From IMG/VR virus record IMGVR_UViG_3300008113_010842: a DNA stretch of 60,918 bases; one strand, 5' to 3'. This document shows positions 4,627 through 55,401 of this stretch, in pieces. Made by a program: the position numbers and the translations under genes. Each line of letters starts with the position of its first letter. The first letter of the stretch is position 1. The DNA comes from an uncultured virus (IMG/VR IMGVR_UViG_3300008113_010842). Lineage: Duplodnaviria; Heunggongvirae; Uroviricota; Caudoviricetes. The notes beneath the pieces were generated by a model that saw only the letters and a list, made by a program, of their open reading frames with translations, searched no databases and was not told the DNA's origin.

Positions 4627-5724
4627 TTAAGCTACTGTTAGGAAAATTTTCCTACTTGTTCTATCAACTGATAGAACTTTTACTTTTAAATCTTGGCCCG
4701 GTGTAAACTTCTTTTTCAATTTTTCCATCTCGGAAGTATGAATGAGTCCAACGGTTTCTTCATCAAGATTTACTAATGTTCCGAAAGGTTTTACATCTTT
4801 TACAGAACCTTCAATTACCTGACCATTTTTGATAGTGTCCCACAATGTTTCTCTAAGAATTTGTGTAAGAATTAACTTAGGTAAATATTTATCTCGAATA
4901 ATTTCTTTAATGTAGAAAGTAATCTCGAAGCCTGGCTTAATTTCATTGATTCTTTCTTGCCATTCAGGATTAATGTTAGCTTTATGAATCATGCCTGTAA
5001 GACACTCGTTGAATTCAACAAATACTCCGAATGGAGTTGTGCCTGTCACATGTCCGTCATAGGTCACATTATATTCAAGATTTTTTACTGCTTCAGGAAT
5101 TAACGTTTGTAAATATTTTCTTCTACTTACAATGTAAGTTCCTTCCTGTTCAGCATAAGATTCGATCATTACCTCAAATGTTTGACCAACGATTGAGTTA
5201 GGATCGTGTAACTTATTGATTCCTGCTAATGTGTTAGGCATAAAACCAGGTAGTGTTACACCACCATGCATAAGTTCAACGTCATATCCAGCAGGATTTA
5301 GTGATTTAATGTGAGCTGTAACTGAAGCTCCTTCCTCAAGAGATTTCAGATTTTGATGAGCTCTAGATTCATAAAGTTCAGATATACTTCCTCTAATGTA
5401 AAAGTGGTTATTATCAACATTTACGATGAGCACATCAACAAAGTCACCTTCTGATACGTTTTTTAGATATTTGCTTTCTGAAGTTCTATTTTCAACTCGA
5501 ATATCATCTTTATATCCTGGAACATGAAATACATGTTGATTTGCATTCAGTCCTTGATATTCTGCTGAGATAATGTCACCTTTATTTGGAATTTTCAAAG
5601 CAGTTTTTTCATAAAGTTTTGCCAATTCTTTGTAAGAATCGCTTTTTTGTCTTGATTTAAATGAGCTATCGTCAAATAAGTAGTCAAGTTCTGGGTTTCC
5701 GATTATTGTTTCTGTCATATTCAT
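4627..5724 (-). CDS. rpsA: Ribosomal protein bS1-like multi-S1-domain RNA-binding protein
   Basis: About four S1 repeats (GHVTGTTPFGVFVEF..LTGMIH; GSVKDVKPFGTLVNL...GLIHTSE...KVKVLSVD...KIFL) plus IVSRR linker. Confidence 0.8.
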   Translation of the reverse strand: MNMTETIIGNPELDYLFDDSSFKSRQKSDSYKELAKLYEKTALKIPNKGDIISAEYQGLNANQHVFHVPGYKDDIRVENRTSESKYLKNVSEGDFVDVLIVNVDNNHFYIRGSISELYESRAHQNLKSLEEGASVTAHIKSLNPAGYDVELMHGGVTLPGFMPNTLAGINKLHDPNSIVGQTFEVMIESYAEQEGTYIVSRRKYLQTLIPEAVKNLEYNVTYDGHVTGTTPFGVFVEFNECLTGMIHKANINPEWQERINEIKPGFEITFYIKEIIRDKYLPKLILTQILRETLWDTIKNGQVIEGSVKDVKPFGTLVNLDEETVGLIHTSEMEKLKKKFTPGQDLKVKVLSVDRTSRKIFLTVA

Positions 5725-29417: not shown

Positions 29418-29449
29418 AACCCGAACCTCGAAAGAAGTTCGGGTTTTTT
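29418..29449 (+). terminator. Attenuator terminator 1
   Basis: AACCCGAAC-CTCGAAAGAA-GTTCGGGTT followed by a T-tract. Confidence 0.85.
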
Positions 29450-29473: not shown

Positions 29474-29878
29474 TTGAAACAGATAAGAGATTATAATTAT
29501 AAAATTTCCGAAAGTGGAGAAATAATAAATTTAAGTAATGGTAAAGTTAAAGGTCAATGGATAAACTCAAGTGGTTATTATTGTGTTGAATTAACTATTG
29601 ATAAGTGTAAAAAGAAAAAGTTTTTAACACATAGATTAGTCGCTGAAACATATTTGGAATTACCAATTATTGAAAAAAAAGTACAAATTGATCACATAAA
29701 TAGAAATAGAATAGATAATCACTTTTCAAATTTAAGATGGGTTACATCATCTGAGAATTGTAAAAATAAAAATAGAGTTAAAGTAAAAATGGATGATATT
29801 AATAGCATAATTGAAATGTTCAAAAATGGAGAAACTATTGATAATATTTATAAAATTATAAATTGTTTTTGTCTGTAA
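29474..29878 (+). CDS. NUMOD4/HNH homing endonuclease
   Basis: YKISESGEI, GYYCVEL, HRLVAETY, IDHINRNRIDNHFSNLRWVT..EN; TTG start. Confidence 0.85.
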   Translation: MKQIRDYNYKISESGEIINLSNGKVKGQWINSSGYYCVELTIDKCKKKKFLTHRLVAETYLELPIIEKKVQIDHINRNRIDNHFSNLRWVTSSENCKNKNRVKVKMDDINSIIEMFKNGETIDNIYKIINCFCL

Positions 29879-30314: not shown

Positions 30315-30442
30315 GGGGATGTAGCTCAGTGGTAGAGAAAACTATCTCTTTTGAAATTTTACCTCGTAAGAGTGTTGATTAAAAGAGTTACTTCGTATAT
30401 TTTGAAATTATAAGGTCGTTGGTTCGAATCCAACCATCCCCA
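30315..30442 (+). tRNA. tRNA-like RNA with ~56-nt insertion (apparent anticodon TGA)
   Basis: Perfect acceptor GGGGATG/CATCCCC, D arm and T arm GTTGG-TTCGAAT-CCAAC; hairpin insert between D and anticodon arms. Confidence 0.6.
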
Positions 30443-30450
30443 CAAAAAAT

Positions 30451-40198: not shown

Positions 40199-40270
40199 TG
40201 CGGGGTGGAGTAGTGGAAGCTCGCTAGGCTCATAACCTAGAGGTCGCAGGTTCGAGTCCTGCCCCCGCTA
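40199..40270 (+). tRNA. Initiator-type tRNA-Met(CAT)
   Basis: 1:72 mismatch, fMet-like GCGGGGTGGAG 5' end, CTAGG-CTCATAA-CCTAG. Confidence 0.88.
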
Positions 40271-40289
40271 CAAAAAAATAGATAAAATA

Positions 40290-40930: not shown

Positions 40931-41012
40931 TGGAAGGTGGGTGAGTGGCTAAAACCGGCAGACTGTAAATCTGCTCTCTTTGAGTACGGGGGTTCGAATC
41001 CCTCCCTTCCAA
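40931..41012 (+). tRNA. tRNA-Tyr(GTA)
   Basis: GCAGA-CTGTAAA-TCTGC; class II variable arm. Confidence 0.92.
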
Positions 41013-41040
41013 CTTTTTTTATTTTCTTCATAAAACAAAG

Positions 41041-42078
41041 ATGGAGAATGAAGTTGTAATAATAACATCACATGCTAATACAGATTTTAAGTTAGACATT
41101 TTAAATGAATGTATCCAATATATTAAGTCATTTGGGTATCAAATCATTTTATCATCACATATTTCTGTTCCGGATTCTATACTGGATGATGTAGATTTTT
41201 TTGTCTATGATAAAGAAAATAGAATTATTAATTATTGGGAATATCAAGAAATTCCATCAGGCTATTATAAATACATAAATTTTGATGAATATCAGCATAC
41301 TATATCATCTGAGTTTGACCATGGTTATTCTGTATTGAGACTTATAAGAAATGGACTGAGCTTAGCGAGTATCAATGGATTTACAAAATCACATATTGTA
41401 GATTACGATTATATAATAAAAGATTCAAATTTTTTTAGAGAAAACACAAAATATTTAGGTAATCTTTATGATATCATAGGTTATCGATGTCATGATTATT
41501 ACTTTACTACAGGTATTTTTTCAGTTGTTTGTGATAAAATACTACCAGTATTACAAAGTATAAATTCAGTTGAGGCTTATAGCCAAATTCATTTAGAAAC
41601 AATAGATGATAATAAACTGACAAATAGTGGTGTTTTAGAAAACATATTTTTTTATTTAATTAAAAAAAATAATCTGAGTTTTTTTAATATCGAAGAAAAA
41701 GATTTAGACTTAGAATTGAATGAATTTGATAAAATAAATGTTTTTAATAATTTTTATTTGATTCAAGGAACTTCTATTGAGATTTTCAAATCAACCGATG
41801 GCTTTTTTGACTACCTAACTTTGCTTAATTATGGAACAATCTTAGAATATATAGAGATTCATTATAAAGAAAATTGTTCTATAAAAATAAATTACAATAA
41901 TATCTATGAAAAATCACAATCCGAAAATTCACATATTTCTATTTTAAAATTACCAGATTGGTTAAAAGATATTGAATTTACAATTGAGGCCATAGGTTAT
42001 GGGAAAAAGACTATAAGAAAAAACGAGAATAAAGCACAATGTCAAATAAAAAATCAAAATATTATTTTTGAAATTTAA
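41041..42078 (+). CDS. Hypothetical protein, possibly glycosyltransferase-related
   Basis: 345 aa; IILSSH...DFFVYDKEN...HGYSV...DYD pattern. Confidence 0.7.
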   Translation: MENEVVIITSHANTDFKLDILNECIQYIKSFGYQIILSSHISVPDSILDDVDFFVYDKENRIINYWEYQEIPSGYYKYINFDEYQHTISSEFDHGYSVLRLIRNGLSLASINGFTKSHIVDYDYIIKDSNFFRENTKYLGNLYDIIGYRCHDYYFTTGIFSVVCDKILPVLQSINSVEAYSQIHLETIDDNKLTNSGVLENIFFYLIKKNNLSFFNIEEKDLDLELNEFDKINVFNNFYLIQGTSIEIFKSTDGFFDYLTLLNYGTILEYIEIHYKENCSIKINYNNIYEKSQSENSHISILKLPDWLKDIEFTIEAIGYGKKTIRKNENKAQCQIKNQNIIFEI

Positions 42079-42145
42079 AAAAAATAACTAATTTTGTAAA
42101 AAGAAAGATAAAACTTTTTATATATAACAACATATAATAGAAACA

Positions 42146-42229
42146 ATGAAAAATTTAACTAACATATCACAAGCAGTTATAGCGACAGGCGCGGGGCGTT
42201 TGGTCGAGAGACTGAGTTATGTTATGTAA
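42146..42229 (+). CDS. Attenuator leader peptide 3, MKNLTNISQAVIATGAGRLVERLSYVM
   Basis: GCA-GTT-ATA-GCG-ACA-GGC-GCG-GGG patch matches the Ile(TAT)/Gly/Ala array; GAGACTGAGTTA complements the terminator arm. Confidence 0.8.
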   Translation: MKNLTNISQAVIATGAGRLVERLSYVM

Positions 42230-42253
42230 GATTTTGACTTTACATATTTATTT

Positions 42254-42283
42254 AACCCAGTCTCAAAAAGATTGGGTTTTTTT
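42254..42283 (+). terminator. Attenuator terminator 3
   Basis: AACCCAGTCT-CAAAA-AGATTGGGTT plus T-tract. Confidence 0.88.
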
Positions 42284-42287
42284 ATTT

Positions 42288-42361
42288 TGGTGAGTAGCTT
42301 AGACGGTAGAAGCACGTGTCTTATACACACGAGATAGTGGGTTCGATACCCACCTCACCAA
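42288..42361 (+). tRNA. tRNA-Ile(TAT)
   Basis: CGTGT-CTTATAC-ACACG. Confidence 0.85.
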
Positions 42362-42366
42362 CAAAA

Positions 42367-42438
42367 GCGGGTATCGTATAATGGTTATTACACCGGCCTT
42401 CCAAGTCGGTGATGTCAGTTCGATTCTGGTTACCCGCA
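42367..42438 (+). tRNA. tRNA-Gly(TCC)
   Basis: CCGGC-CTTCCAA-GTCGG. Confidence 0.88.
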
Positions 42439-42442
42439 CTAC

Positions 42443-42518
42443 GGGCTAGCATGTTCCAAGGCTTCGGCGACTTACCCTTGCAAGGTAGGTGTGGTGGGTT
42501 CGATTCCCATCTGGTCCA
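42443..42518 (+). tRNA. tRNA-Ala(TGC)
   Basis: TTACC-CTTGCAA-GGTAG; G3:U70 pair. Confidence 0.8.
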
Positions 42519-42528
42519 CAAAAAATAA

Positions 42529-42603
42529 GCGAGAGTAGCTCAGTGGTAGAATGTCTGCTTGCCAAGCAGAAGGTCGCGGGTTCGAATCCCGTCTCTCGCT
42601 CCA
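42529..42603 (+). tRNA. tRNA-Gly(GCC)
   Basis: TCTGC-TTGCCAA-GCAGA; U73; encoded CCA. Confidence 0.93.
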
Positions 42604-42607
42604 ATAT

Positions 42608-42644
42608 GCCGGTTGACCCACGTTGAATCGCGGTGCCGGCTCCA
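42608..42644 (+). ncRNA. tRNA minihelix-like RNA ending UCCA
   Basis: GCCGGT/GCCGGC stem, inner T-arm-like hairpin, 3' TCCA. Confidence 0.45.
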
Positions 42645-42717
42645 GGGGGATTAGCTCATTTGGCGGAGCGTTTGAATGGCATTCAAAAGGTGACGAGTTC
42701 GATCCTCGTATCCTCCA
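42645..42717 (+). tRNA. tRNA-Ala(GGC)
   Basis: TTTGA-ATGGCAT-TCAAA; G3:U70 pair. Confidence 0.9.
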
Positions 42718-42737
42718 CAAAAATTAATATATACTAA

Positions 42738-42920
42738 ATGACAATATTTAAAAACATATTAGATGGTAAGCTCTACACTATTTACAAAAATAGTGATGGA
42801 ACACTTACTGCATTTCCATCTGGTAAAGTTTTCGATAGAAACTCAATTTTAAAAGATTGTAAAATTGAAGACTTTGTTGTTTTTAAAATTGAAACTAATA
42901 AAATTAAAGGTTTTATATAA
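42738..42920 (+). CDS. Hypothetical protein
   Basis: 60-aa ORF after TTAATATATAC. Confidence 0.6.
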   Translation: MTIFKNILDGKLYTIYKNSDGTLTAFPSGKVFDRNSILKDCKIEDFVVFKIETNKIKGFI

Positions 42921-43064
42921 AAAATAATTAAAAGATATGGAGGATAAAGTAGTAATCAAAGGTGAATTTAGAGGAAGCAAATCTTATTTTAGATCAGTTG
43001 AAAAGAATGAAAAATCAAAAATTAATTGTGTTGGTTTAATAATCAAAACTTTTAAAAGAAAAAG

Positions 43065-43093
43065 AAAGTCCAGAAAATAACTGGACTTTTTTT
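43065..43093 (+). terminator. Intrinsic terminator
   Basis: AAAGTCCAG-AAAATAA-CTGGACTTT plus T-tract. Confidence 0.75.
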
Positions 43094-43116
43094 ATAAATA
43101 GAAATAAAAAATTTAA

Positions 43117-43851
43117 ATGAAAAATATTTTATTTCTCTTATTCACTCTGATTTCTCTCATTACTAATTCACAAACAATACTTTCGTGGAATATACAAAAT
43201 TTAGGAGAAACTAAATATAAAAAGGATTCAGTAATTTCTCAGCTTTCTAGTGTTATAAAGTCTTCAAAAGCAGACATTATTGCTATTCAAGAAGTTGTTA
43301 CTGGATCATATGGTGATTCTTGTATAATAAAAATATCTAAAAATATAGATTACAATTATGTAATTTCGACTAGAACAACAGGTGATGGTTCAGAAAGATA
43401 TGCTTTTCTTTATAAAAAGAATATCAAACTTAATTGGTCTAAATTAGATACCACTCTACAGGATTCTATTGATAGAGAACCATTTATGGCATCATTCAAA
43501 ATAAATAAAAAAGATATAACAATAAGACAAGTTCATCTTGTTCCAACAAATAAAAATCCTCAAAGAGAAGTAGAAGATTTATATTGTTATAAAGATGGTA
43601 TCATTTGTGGCGATTTTAATTTGACTTGTAATCATCTTATTTATATTCCCCTAAAGACTTATTTTAATATGCCACTTTGTGGTAAAGGAACCTCTTTAAA
43701 AAGAGATGGAACAATTAGTGAAAATAATTATGACCATTTTTTAGTAGAAAAATCTTATAAAATTTTAGAGAGTAAAGTTTATGTTTATCCATATAAAGGA
43801 AATAAAAACATTCTTTCAGATCATTTACCAATACTTATAAAACTAAAATAA
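43117..43851 (+). CDS. Exported EEP-family (DNase I-like) nuclease/phosphatase
   Basis: Signal-peptide-like N-terminus; SWNIQN, DIIAIQEV, ERYAFLY, REPF, GDFN, YDHF, SDHLPI. Confidence 0.88.
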   Translation: MKNILFLLFTLISLITNSQTILSWNIQNLGETKYKKDSVISQLSSVIKSSKADIIAIQEVVTGSYGDSCIIKISKNIDYNYVISTRTTGDGSERYAFLYKKNIKLNWSKLDTTLQDSIDREPFMASFKINKKDITIRQVHLVPTNKNPQREVEDLYCYKDGIICGDFNLTCNHLIYIPLKTYFNMPLCGKGTSLKRDGTISENNYDHFLVEKSYKILESKVYVYPYKGNKNILSDHLPILIKLK

Positions 43852-43882
43852 AACAATCTATTTTATAATTAGTATAATAATT

Positions 43883-44542
43883 ATGGAATTATTTCATTTT
43901 GATATAGAAACGGCTGGTCAATATAAAGACTATGATAATTTTTTGATTAATGATTCAAGAGGAGCCAAATTATTTGAGTCTAAATATGAAAAAATGAAGT
44001 GGTCTGAAAAATATTCTGATATAAATGAAGCTTATTTAGATAACTCAGGTATAATATCTACATATGGTCGTATTGTTTGTATTTCATTTGGTTTTATAGA
44101 CAACGATGGTAATAAAAAAATTACTTCTTTTTGTGGTGATGATGAACAAGATATAGTAACTTCATTCAATAATCTTCTCAACAAGATTGAAAAAAAATCT
44201 TTTAGTTTATGTGGTTTTAGAATTAATCACTTTGATATACCTTGGCTTTTGCACAAGTGTCATAAATATCAAATTATTCCTTCTAATATGATTTATGTAT
44301 ATGATAAAAAACCTTGGGAAATGAGAATTGTTGATATGTCTGATGATTGGCGTCAAAAATTTGCTTGGGCCTTTTCATTTGATGAGATGTGTTATGAATT
44401 AGGAGTAAAATCTCCTAAACAAAATATGAATGGTTCTTTAGTCCACTCAAAATTCTGGTCTGGTGATTATCTAAGTATAAAAAGTTATTGTGAAGAAGAT
44501 GTTTCATCATCTATTGATGCCTCTCTTTATCTTTACAAATAA
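43883..44542 (+). CDS. DEDD 3'-5' exonuclease (PolB-exonuclease-like)
   Basis: FDIET, GRIVCISFG, FDIPWL, YCEEDV. Confidence 0.85.
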   Translation: MELFHFDIETAGQYKDYDNFLINDSRGAKLFESKYEKMKWSEKYSDINEAYLDNSGIISTYGRIVCISFGFIDNDGNKKITSFCGDDEQDIVTSFNNLLNKIEKKSFSLCGFRINHFDIPWLLHKCHKYQIIPSNMIYVYDKKPWEMRIVDMSDDWRQKFAWAFSFDEMCYELGVKSPKQNMNGSLVHSKFWSGDYLSIKSYCEEDVSSSIDASLYLYK

Positions 44543-47069: not shown

Positions 47070-47158
47070 GGGCTTGTAGCTGATTTGGTTTTAGCTGGTG
47101 ACTGTTAATCACTGTATGAAAAATTGAAATAAAGTAGGTTCGAATCCTGCCTGGCCCG
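47070..47158 (+). tRNA. tRNA-Asn(GTT) with ~20-nt variable region
   Basis: GGTGA-CTGTTAA-TCACT; G73. Confidence 0.75.
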
Positions 47159-47169
47159 CAAAAATAAAT

Positions 47170-55304: not shown

Positions 55305-55387
55305 CGGGATGTAGCCTAGAGGTTACGCAAGTTAGAGGCACTTGGTTTGGGACCAAGACGACGCAGGTTCGATTCCTGTCATCCCGA
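55305..55387 (+). tRNA. tRNA-Pro(TGG) with enlarged D loop
   Basis: CTTGG-TTTGGGA-CCAAG; C1:G72. Confidence 0.85.
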
Positions 55388-55401
55388 CAAAAATAAACGA
55401 T

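What the first reader, a model, noticed from the sequence alone, without database searches (positions are those of the whole stretch)
42146..42717. Attenuator 3: Ala/Gly/Ile(ATA) leader ahead of Ile(TAT), Gly, Ala, Gly, Ala tRNAs
The patch GCA GTT ATA GCG ACA GGC GCG GGG is strikingly GC-rich for this genome. Both Ile codons in the leader are ATA, matching the unusual tRNA-Ile(UAU), while leader 4 uses ATT before tRNA-Ile(GAU). GAGACTGAGTTA (42208-42219) pairs 11/12 with TAACCCAGTCTC (42253-42264), and TATGTAA/TTACATA extends that hairpin across the stop codon.
Basis: partly seen in the sequence, partly recalled or inferred. Interest (0 to 1): 0.85.

Follow-up and report, generated by a model that had tools for sequence, protein, structure and literature searches.

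The report
Codon-matched attenuator gating phage tRNA genes
A giant uncultured phage puts a tiny translated test gene and a switchable transcription stop directly in front of its isoleucine, glycine and alanine tRNA genes, so it probably makes these tRNAs mainly when ribosomes read the matching codons slowly.

Summary
A 27-codon ORF (42146-42229) is followed by an intrinsic terminator (42254-42278) whose T tract runs into tRNA-Ile(UAU). Behind it lie Gly(UCC), an atypical Ala(UGC), Gly(GCC) and Ala(GGC).

The last codons at which a stalled ribosome would still leave the antiterminator free are Ile/Ala/Gly codons (6 of 8, P=0.0005). The unit is conserved in five related huge-phage contigs and in 53 further public loci, giving 38 distinct sequences:
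- The ATG is invariant.
- Sensor-region indels are in frame in 37 of 38.
- The antiterminator arm is kept in two different reading frames.
- One column covaries with both its antiterminator and its terminator partner.

All five tRNA clusters of the window have such a unit, and the true leader-to-cluster assignment ranks 1 of 120. Codon choice tracks isoacceptors: ATA before Ile(UAU) and ATT before Ile(GAU); CGY before Arg(ACG) and AGA before Arg(UCU).

The best reading is a leader-peptide attenuator acting on tRNA genes. There are no expression data, and the switch appears only in a co-transcriptional folding model. Seven of my eight literature searches looked for such control and found none; the eighth only located the huge-phage paper, whose text has no mention. 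This scan noted the same class earlier on other DNA.

The parts
42089..42096 (+). Candidate host-type (Bacteroidota-like) -7 promoter element.
   Evidence: Read. The consensus is recalled, not tested. It is absent from the relatives, where the leader directly follows a tRNA-Tyr.
42110..42126 (+). Conserved 17-base A/T motif 20 nt upstream of the ATG. It is a candidate phage promoter or start-context element.
   Evidence: Identical in 6 of 6 genomes and an exact match in the window. A related 10-mer occurs 12 times against 1.8 expected.
42146..42229 (+). Leader ORF of 27 codons plus a TAA stop.
   Evidence: The ATG is invariant and an ORF of 22-30 codons is kept in 38 of 38 distinct relatives.
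42161..42169 (+). Core of region 1 (5' arm of the anti-antiterminator). It includes the first ATA codon.
   Evidence: It pairs with part of region 2 in 34-38 of 38 sequences. It is part of the full-length MFE fold.
42173..42196 (+). Sensor patch, codons 10-17 (Ala Val Ile Ala Thr Gly Ala Gly). It uses ATA and the rare codons GCG, GGC and GGG.
   Evidence: 6 of 8 codons are Ile/Ala/Gly against 0.17 expected (P=0.0005, or 0.009 after correcting for 19 windows). GCG is 4% of Ala codons; GGC is 6% and GGG 2% of Gly codons. These are the last codons compatible with the antiterminator.
42183..42206 (+). Small G+C-rich hairpin inside the leader. It may be an RNA polymerase pause hairpin (inferred).
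   Evidence: Present in the folds. Its pairs are only 58% kept in relatives (helix 5).
42208..42230 (+). Region 2: 5' arm of the antiterminator. It overlaps the last seven codons and the stop.
   Evidence: It is conserved at the nucleotide level in two different reading frames (20 and 16 sequences).
42239..42264 (+). Region 3: 3' arm of the antiterminator. Its 3' part (42254-42264) is also the 5' arm of the terminator.
42254..42288 (+). Intrinsic terminator: a 10-pair stem-loop at 42254-42278 and a T tract that runs into the first base of tRNA-Ile.
   Evidence: Stability is -12.8 kcal/mol. 98.2% of cells are paired in 38 sequences.
42288..42362 (+). tRNA-Ile, anticodon UAU.
42367..42439 (+). 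tRNA-Gly, anticodon UCC.
42443..42519 (+). Atypical tRNA-Ala-like gene: anticodon UGC, G3:U70, unusual D arm.
   Evidence: Found by relaxed ARAGORN only. It falls below Rfam's tRNA threshold. ARAGORN calls Ala(tgc) behind the leader in 11 of the 38 relatives; whether those genes are positional homologues of this one was not checked.
42529..42603 (+). tRNA-Gly, anticodon GCC.
42645..42718 (+). tRNA-Ala, anticodon GGC.

Best explanation
This is a ribosome-mediated (leader-peptide) transcription attenuator that controls a tRNA operon of a huge phage of a Bacteroidota-type host.

Proposed mechanism:
1. Transcription starts upstream of 42146, and a ribosome translates the 27-codon leader.
2. If Ile(ATA), Ala or Gly codons at positions 7-17 are decoded slowly, the ribosome sits upstream of 42208. 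Region 2 (42208-42230) then pairs with region 3 (42239-42264) as soon as region 3 is made. The terminator cannot form, and RNA polymerase reads into tRNA-Ile(UAU), Gly, Ala, Gly and Ala.
3. If these codons are decoded quickly, the ribosome reaches codons 19-28 or the stop and covers region 2. Region 3 then pairs with region 4 and transcription ends at the T tract that abuts tRNA-Ile.
4. Without any ribosome, region 1 can hold region 2.

The net effect would be negative feedback: the phage tops up exactly those tRNAs whose codons are read slowly.

Shown here: the anatomy, its conservation, reading-frame conservation, covariation of the three helices, and the leader-to-cluster and codon-to-anticodon matches. 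Inferred: translation of the leader, the coupling, the direction of regulation and its physiological trigger.
For: Anatomy:
- ORF, antiterminator, terminator and abutting tRNA are all present.
- There is no room for a promoter between the T tract and tRNA-Ile.

Folding of the transcript cut before region 4:
- The -19 kcal/mol antiterminator forms with the ribosome A site at codons 1-17 and partly at 18. It is lost at codons 19-28.
- The terminator is weaker, at -12.8 kcal/mol.
- In 28 of 38 relatives the last permissive codon is 14-19, directly after the Gly-Ala-Gly block.

Composition:
- Codons 10-17 are 6 of 8 Ile/Ala/Gly (P=0.0005; 0.009 corrected).

Conservation:
- The unit is present in LR745206.1 and in four IMG/VR contigs of 152-476 kb.
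- It is also in 6 viral and 47 metagenome loci. Together these give 56 loci and 38 distinct sequences.

Evidence for translation:
- The ATG is invariant.
- The distance between two anchors in the sensor region varies (13, 16, 19, 22) but stays in frame in 37 of 38.

RNA-level selection on region 2:
- The same bases are used in two reading frames, 20 and 16 sequences.

Covariation:
- Column 132 pairs with column 72 in the antiterminator (UA:26, AU:8) and with column 142 in the terminator (AU:26, UG:7, UA:2).
- The region 1:2 core is kept in 34-38 of 38.

Downstream genes in relatives:
- ARAGORN finds a Gly tRNA in 33 of 38 and Ile(tat) in 14 of 38, plus Ala and sometimes Met(cat).

Generality:
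- All 5 tRNA clusters of the window have a leader ORF and a terminator.
- The true leader-to-cluster assignment ranks 1 of 120 by amino acid and by codon.
- Of 38 terminator rows in six genomes, I read 35 as such units. They include poly-Gln leaders ahead of three tRNA-Gln genes, and Ser/Arg leaders ahead of Arg(acg) plus Ser.

Isoacceptor match:
- Ile: ATA is 13 of 16 in this family, against ATT 12 of 13 in the family ahead of Ile(gat).
- Arg: leaders ahead of Arg(acg) use CGY at sensor positions, although CGN makes up 9% of Arg codons. Leaders ahead of Arg(tct) use AGA in 13 of 15.
Against: - No transcript ends, ribosome footprints or reporter data exist. The RNA runs gave nothing over the leader.
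- In equilibrium folds of the full transcript the terminator persists at 25 of 28 ribosome positions. The antiterminator appears only at codons 6-8. The switch therefore appears only in a co-transcriptional model.
- Over the whole leader the Ile/Ala/Gly excess is not significant (7 of 26, P=0.14). The sensor window was defined from my own fold model.
- The patch also holds Val GTT and Thr ACA, which this cluster does not serve. It holds no GCC or GCT codon for Ala(GGC).
- The 8-base G+C block is invariant even at synonymous sites. This fits structure (the small hairpin) as well as codon sensing.
- The first ATA lies in the region 1 helix.
- In the wider set 27 of 74 Ile codons are ATC or ATT.
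- The 53 extra loci were selected by a pattern that fixes three blocks. Their conservation of those blocks says nothing.
- Orthologues are not independent samples.
- Antiterminator complementarity alone is modest (16 of 1000 shuffles do as well).
Confidence: 0.75

Rival explanations
1. The unit is a leaky or constitutive terminator with a translated upstream ORF that senses general translation activity or ribosome availability, not particular codons. The Ile/Ala/Gly and G+C-rich content would serve RNA structure, such as a pause hairpin.
For: - The 8-base G+C block is invariant at synonymous sites and lies in a hairpin.
- The whole-leader enrichment is weak (P=0.14).
- ATC and ATT occur in relatives.
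Against: - The true leader-to-cluster assignment ranks 1 of 120 in the window.
- Leaders of other clusters carry runs of exactly the amino acids served behind them, for example poly-Gln ahead of three tRNA-Gln genes.
- Codon choice follows isoacceptors for both Ile and Arg.
- Substitutions within the sensor stay among Ile, Ala and Gly.
Confidence: 0.12
2. The unit is an RNA-only switch, T-box-like or protein-bound, that reads tRNA or another ligand directly. The ORF would be incidental.
For: - Alternative helices are conserved.
- Region 2 is selected at the RNA level.
Against: - No T-box or other cis-regulatory family matches at 42060-42290, even at E up to 10. None reaches gathering score.
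- The ATG is invariant, and indels are in frame in 37 of 38.
- The stop codon always falls in or just after region 2.
Confidence: 0.05
3. The ORF encodes a functional micropeptide, or the hairpin is simply the terminator of the upstream 345-aa gene. Either way the elements lie next to the tRNAs by chance.
For: - The 345-aa ORF ends at 42078, 176 nt upstream of the terminator.
Against: - In four relatives the unit directly follows a tRNA-Tyr, not that gene.
- The C-terminal half of the peptide is read in two different frames.
- The same architecture recurs at all five clusters.
Confidence: 0.03

Closest known systems
Leader-peptide transcription attenuators of enterobacterial amino-acid operons (trp, his, leu, pheA; the multivalent thr and ilv leaders). 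Recalled textbook knowledge.
   Same: - A short translated leader carries clustered regulatory codons.
- Four regions form mutually exclusive 1:2, 2:3 and 3:4 helices.
- The intrinsic terminator is weaker than the antiterminator.
- Rare or slowly read codons serve as sensors.
- Several amino acids are sensed at once, as in thr and ilv.
   Different: - The regulated genes are tRNA genes, not biosynthetic enzymes. The product is the very molecule whose shortage stalls the ribosome.
- The element is phage-borne and lies in a Bacteroidota-type context.
- The sensor matches a whole tRNA cluster, down to isoacceptor codons.
- There is no sequence or Rfam relationship.
The pheST (pheM leader) attenuator of E. 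coli. Recalled. A pheL paper, PMC3082878, was seen only in a search listing.
   Same: Leader-peptide attenuation is applied to a component of the translation apparatus that handles the sensed amino acid.
   Different: It controls an aminoacyl-tRNA synthetase, senses a single amino acid, and is a cellular gene.
T-box riboswitches (Rfam RF00230). Recalled function.
   Same: Antiterminator or terminator choice depends on the state of a specific tRNA, and the element is codon-specific.
   Different: A T-box binds uncharged tRNA directly and needs no translation. No T-box match was found here. Here the ORF is conserved in frame.
Earlier notes of this scan on other DNA: leader-peptide attenuators gating phage tRNA genes. 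These are AI notes, mostly unchecked.
   Same: The same architecture and logic were noted in other uncultured phages. One look-alike stretch holds a Tyr/Glu leader like the window's attenuator 2.
   Different: Those are different genomes and leader families. None of the notes named a publication.

Membership tests
Leader-peptide (ribosome-mediated) transcription attenuator | A short ORF with its own start codon lies in the 5' leader, upstream of the regulated genes. | tested here: met
   ORF at 42146-42229. The ATG is invariant and the ORF is kept in 38 of 38 relatives.
Leader-peptide (ribosome-mediated) transcription attenuator | An intrinsic terminator lies between the leader ORF and the regulated genes. 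| tested here: met
   Stem at 42254-42278 plus a T tract abutting tRNA-Ile. 98.2% of cells are paired in relatives.
Leader-peptide (ribosome-mediated) transcription attenuator | An antiterminator helix shares a strand with the terminator and overlaps the 3' end of the ORF. | tested here: met
   The core is paired in 85.7% of cells against 30-41% in slid controls, and there is a compensatory pair. 16 of 1000 shuffles do as well.
Leader-peptide (ribosome-mediated) transcription attenuator | Regulatory codons are clustered where a stalled ribosome frees the antiterminator. | tested here: met
   Codons 10-17 are 6 of 8 Ile/Ala/Gly. The permissive boundary is at codon 17/18 and at codons 14-19 in 28 of 38 relatives. 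This rests on a fold model only.
Leader-peptide (ribosome-mediated) transcription attenuator | Ribosome position decides the fate of transcription in vivo or in vitro. | not testable with these tools
   The RNA runs held only short contigs and none over the leader.
Leader-peptide (ribosome-mediated) transcription attenuator | The regulated genes are amino-acid biosynthesis or aminoacyl-tRNA synthetase genes (all described cases that I recall). | tested here: not met
   The genes behind the terminator are tRNA genes. I therefore file this as a new variant, not a plain member.
T-box riboswitch | Specifier loop and T-box sequence, recognisable by the Rfam model. | tested here: not met
   No match at gathering score or at E up to 10 over 42060-42730.

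The most novel reading that the evidence does not exclude
Phage tRNA supply is under codon-resolved, closed-loop control. Each tRNA cluster is gated by a leader that tests decoding of exactly the codons its tRNAs read, down to isoacceptors: ATA for Ile(UAU) against ATT for Ile(GAU), and CGY for Arg(ACG) against AGA for Arg(UCU). The phage thus measures, codon by codon, whether the host can decode its A+T-rich genes, or whether host defences have depleted particular tRNAs. It then transcribes only the tRNA sets that are short.
Probability: 0.45. Interest if true: 0.9.

Novelty: new variant of a known kind. Interest (0 to 1): 0.8.

Why it matters
Phage tRNA genes are usually discussed as a fixed supplement for codon usage or as a counter to host tRNA-cleaving defences. 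How their expression is controlled is largely unknown.

A leader-peptide attenuator in front of tRNA genes would be direct feedback in which slow decoding of a codon switches on the tRNA that reads it. That would extend a classic regulatory principle to a new class of targets.

It also gives a readable signature, because the leader's codons predict which tRNAs a cluster is meant to supply. Isoacceptor-level sensing (ATA against ATT) becomes directly testable with synonymous swaps. The compact units could also serve as codon-specific sensors in synthetic biology.

Tried and rejected
- The whole genome of the window is not held.
- The search for related loci with the upstream 345-aa protein found no relative in viral contigs.
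- Megablast to the phage collection gave only one distant relative with real synteny, LR745206.1 at 78% identity over 8% of the query. The other hits were single tRNAs.
- Equilibrium folding of the full transcript with a masked ribosome did not reproduce the switch. I replaced it with a truncated-transcript model.
- RNA runs: three runs hold 5-6% of the sampled words, as contigs only. Laid on 41000-44000, they gave short pieces, none covering 42111-42211. This says nothing about transcript ends or read-through.
- The hairpin at 42607-42640 is not exceptional by energy (z = -0.62).
- A permutation test of leader-to-cluster assignment in the five related genomes was not run. Only the window's own 120-permutation test and the listing stand.
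- Literature: eight full-text searches in all. Seven looked for leader-peptide or attenuator control of tRNA genes and found no such paper. The eighth only located the huge-phage paper. That paper (PMC7162821, passages read with 'find') has no occurrence of 'attenuat' or 'leader'. Its supplements were not read.
- From the 38 terminator rows I dropped three: a second weak hairpin behind the same ORF in L020, and two ahead of lone tRNA-Met genes with no matching ORF.

Full report
**What the window is.** The window is 28.7% G+C. ARAGORN finds 27 tRNA genes on the + strand, in five clusters, and all 26 Rfam matches at gathering score are tRNAs. Pfam finds an S1-domain protein, an NAD-dependent DNA ligase, glycosyltransferases, DNA methylases and an HNH/NUMOD4 endonuclease. 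The nearest public record is LR745206.1, an uncultured phage of 634,780 bp, at about 78% identity over syntenic pieces. [quoted passage not shown] That this record is one of those genomes is my inference from its length.

**The observation.**
- The ORF at 42146-42229 has 27 codons and an ATG start.
- Its two Ile codons are both ATA.
- The patch at 42173-42196 is 16 of 24 G+C. Only 31 of 57,809 24-nt windows outside tRNA genes reach that value, at six places, and 19 of the 31 are at this locus.
- The 12-mers at 42208-42219 and 42253-42264 pair 11 of 12, and the 7-mers at 42223-42229 and 42240-42246 extend the helix across the stop codon.
- A 10-pair terminator lies at 42254-42278. Its T tract runs into base 1 of tRNA-Ile(UAU) at 42288, so there is no room for a promoter between them.
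- Behind it lie Gly(UCC), Gly(GCC) and Ala(GGC). At 42443-42519 there is an atypical Ala(UGC)-like gene with G3:U70, found only with relaxed ARAGORN and below Rfam's tRNA threshold.

**Anatomy and fold model.**
- The full-length minimum-energy fold pairs the 5' part of the ORF with region 2 and forms the terminator (-37.7 kcal/mol, z = -3.39).
- When the transcript is cut before region 4, regions 2 and 3 form a hairpin of about -19 kcal/mol, stronger than the terminator (-12.8).
- With 28 nt masked for a ribosome, this hairpin forms for A-site codons 1-17, partly at 18, and is lost for codons 19-28.
- The last permissive codons are therefore 10-17. Six of these eight are Ile, Ala or Gly, against a background of 0.17 (P=0.0005; 0.009 after correcting for 19 windows).
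- Against this reading, equilibrium folds of the complete transcript keep the terminator at 25 of 28 ribosome positions. The switch exists only in a co-transcriptional model.
- Also against it, the whole leader is not significantly enriched (7 of 26, P=0.14).

**Relatives.**
- The unit is present in LR745206.1 with Ile(tat), Gly, Met(cat) and Gly behind it.
- It is also in four IMG/VR contigs of 152-476 kb that I reached through a different leader or through the start of this one.
- In these six genomes the 8-base G+C block, the ATG and a 17-base upstream motif are identical.
- A pattern of three conserved blocks then found 6 viral and 47 metagenome loci. Together with the earlier loci this makes 56 loci and 38 distinct sequences.
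- Because the pattern fixes those blocks, only other features count as evidence from this set.
- All 38 keep an ORF of 22-30 codons from the same ATG.
- The spacing between two anchors in the sensor region takes the values 13, 16, 19 and 22, and once 14. It is thus in frame in 37 of 38, although any value from 13 to 25 was allowed.
- Region 2, in contrast, is conserved as nucleotides in two different reading frames (20 and 16 sequences; not found in 2). This argues against a functional peptide and for an RNA arm.
- ARAGORN finds a Gly tRNA behind 33 of 38 and Ile(tat) behind 14 of 38. Several others carry a structurally odd gene with a UAU-type anticodon loop.

**Covariation (alignment A1).**
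- The antiterminator core is paired in 85.7% of cells, against 30-41% when the partner is slid. One pair switches UA:26/AU:8.
- The terminator is paired in 98.2% of cells.
- The column that switches in the antiterminator also switches with its terminator partner (AU:26, UG:7, UA:2). One base therefore covaries with two alternative partners.
- The region 1:2 core is kept in 34-38 of 38. That core contains the first ATA codon, so its invariance may be structural.
- The extension of the antiterminator across the stop codon is poorly conserved (55-58%).
- In 28 of 38 relatives the last permissive codon lies at 14-19, directly after the Gly-Ala-Gly block. Seven have a later isolated permissive position, and three never reach my threshold.

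**Not a single case.**
- All five clusters in the window are preceded by a small ORF and a terminator.
- Each terminator's 5' arm finds a partner in its own leader better than shuffles do: 16, 4, 16, 0 and 10 of 1000.
- The true leader-to-cluster assignment ranks 1 of 120 permutations by amino acid and by codon. This holds with default tRNA calls and with an extended set.
- Across six genomes, I read 35 of the 38 terminator rows ahead of tRNAs as such units. They include leaders rich in Gln ahead of three tRNA-Gln genes, and leaders rich in Ser and Arg ahead of Arg(acg) plus Ser.
- The only tRNA with an upstream motif but no leader is tRNA-Met at 40199.

**Isoacceptor level.**
- In window ORFs ATA makes up 40% of Ile codons.
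- In the six independently found genomes this leader family uses ATA in 13 of 16 Ile codons. The family ahead of Ile(gat) uses ATT in 12 of 13 (Fisher P=1e-4; orthologues are not independent).
- In the wider set ATA is 47 of 74 outside the fixed codon, so the preference is real but not exclusive.
- A second case, not part of the finding: leaders ahead of Arg(acg) carry CGT or CGC at their sensor positions, although CGN codons are 9% of Arg codons. Leaders ahead of Arg(tct) use AGA in 13 of 15.
- The sensor's GCG, GGC and GGG are the rarest synonymous codons of the phage (4%, 6% and 2%). GCG and GGG would be read by U34 wobble of Ala(UGC) and Gly(UCC), which would make them sensitive reporters; this is inference. 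The same bases also form a small hairpin, so structure is an equally good reason for them.

**Rivals.**
- No T-box or other known leader family matches, even at E up to 10.
- An ordinary gene terminator is unlikely, because in four relatives the unit follows a tRNA-Tyr rather than the 345-aa gene.
- A general translation sensor without codon specificity remains possible. It is my main rival.

**Known or new.** Seven full-text searches for leader-peptide or attenuator control of tRNA genes found no such paper. An eighth search only located the huge-phage paper, which does not mention it in its main text; its supplements were not read. This scan has noted the same class before on other DNA, including a look-alike stretch with a Tyr/Glu leader. 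Those are unchecked AI notes and not independent evidence. I file the element as a new variant of leader-peptide attenuation. It meets the structural criteria, but it regulates tRNA genes rather than biosynthetic or synthetase genes.

**Verdict.** Translation, coupling and the direction of regulation are untested.

Noticed in passing
window 29474-29878: An HNH_3/NUMOD4 homing-endonuclease ORF lies between the terminator of attenuator 1 (29418-29445) and its tRNA cluster (from 29922). In relatives the terminator lies 20-107 nt from the first tRNA.
   Followed up: partly
window 55305-55388: ARAGORN calls this gene Leu(gag). I read a 5-bp stem with a 7-nt loop carrying anticodon UGG, that is tRNA-Pro with an insertion. 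Relatives have Pro(tgg) in this cluster, and the leader there carries Pro, Gln and Asp codons.
   Followed up: partly
window 30315-30443: A tRNA gene is interrupted by about 44 nt in the anticodon region. Relaxed ARAGORN calls it Glu(ttc) with an intron, but the identity is uncertain.
   Followed up: no
window 47070-47159 and many loci: Many tRNAs of normally short types (Asn, Lys, Gln, Thr, Ile, Glu, Met, Pro) are 83-92 nt long in this phage group. This suggests a recurrent insertion or a long extra arm.
   Followed up: no
window 42607-42640; also in L009: A G+C-rich hairpin ending in CCA lies between Gly(GCC) and Ala(GGC). It is conserved in a relative but is not exceptional by energy (z = -0.62). 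Its function is unknown.
   Followed up: partly
window, 12 sites, e.g. 29279, 42724, 54964, 56346: A 10-base A/T motif occurs 12 times against 1.8 expected. It often lies just upstream of the first ATG of a gene block and of leaders 1 and 5. Variants lie upstream of leaders 3 and 4 and of tRNA-Met. It is a candidate phage promoter or start context.
   Followed up: partly
window 40199-40271: tRNA-Met has the upstream motif but no leader ORF or terminator. It is the only tRNA unit in the window without an attenuator.
   Followed up: no
L015 3934-3987; L027 3639-3689; L013 6283-6360; L022 3577-3651; L024 3631-3705: The relatives carry extra internal attenuators that the window lacks. One is a leader with a run of Gln codons ahead of three tRNA-Gln genes. 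The other is a Ser/Arg-rich leader ahead of Arg(acg) and Ser tRNAs.
   Followed up: partly
window 4627-5724 (- strand): A 365-aa protein has an S1 RNA-binding domain (E = 1.7e-24). The huge-phage paper mentions this kind of translation-related gene.
   Followed up: no
window 42738-42920: A 60-aa ORF lies directly behind the tRNA cluster. A similar small ORF sits inside the cluster in a relative (L009). It has no Pfam match.
   Followed up: no
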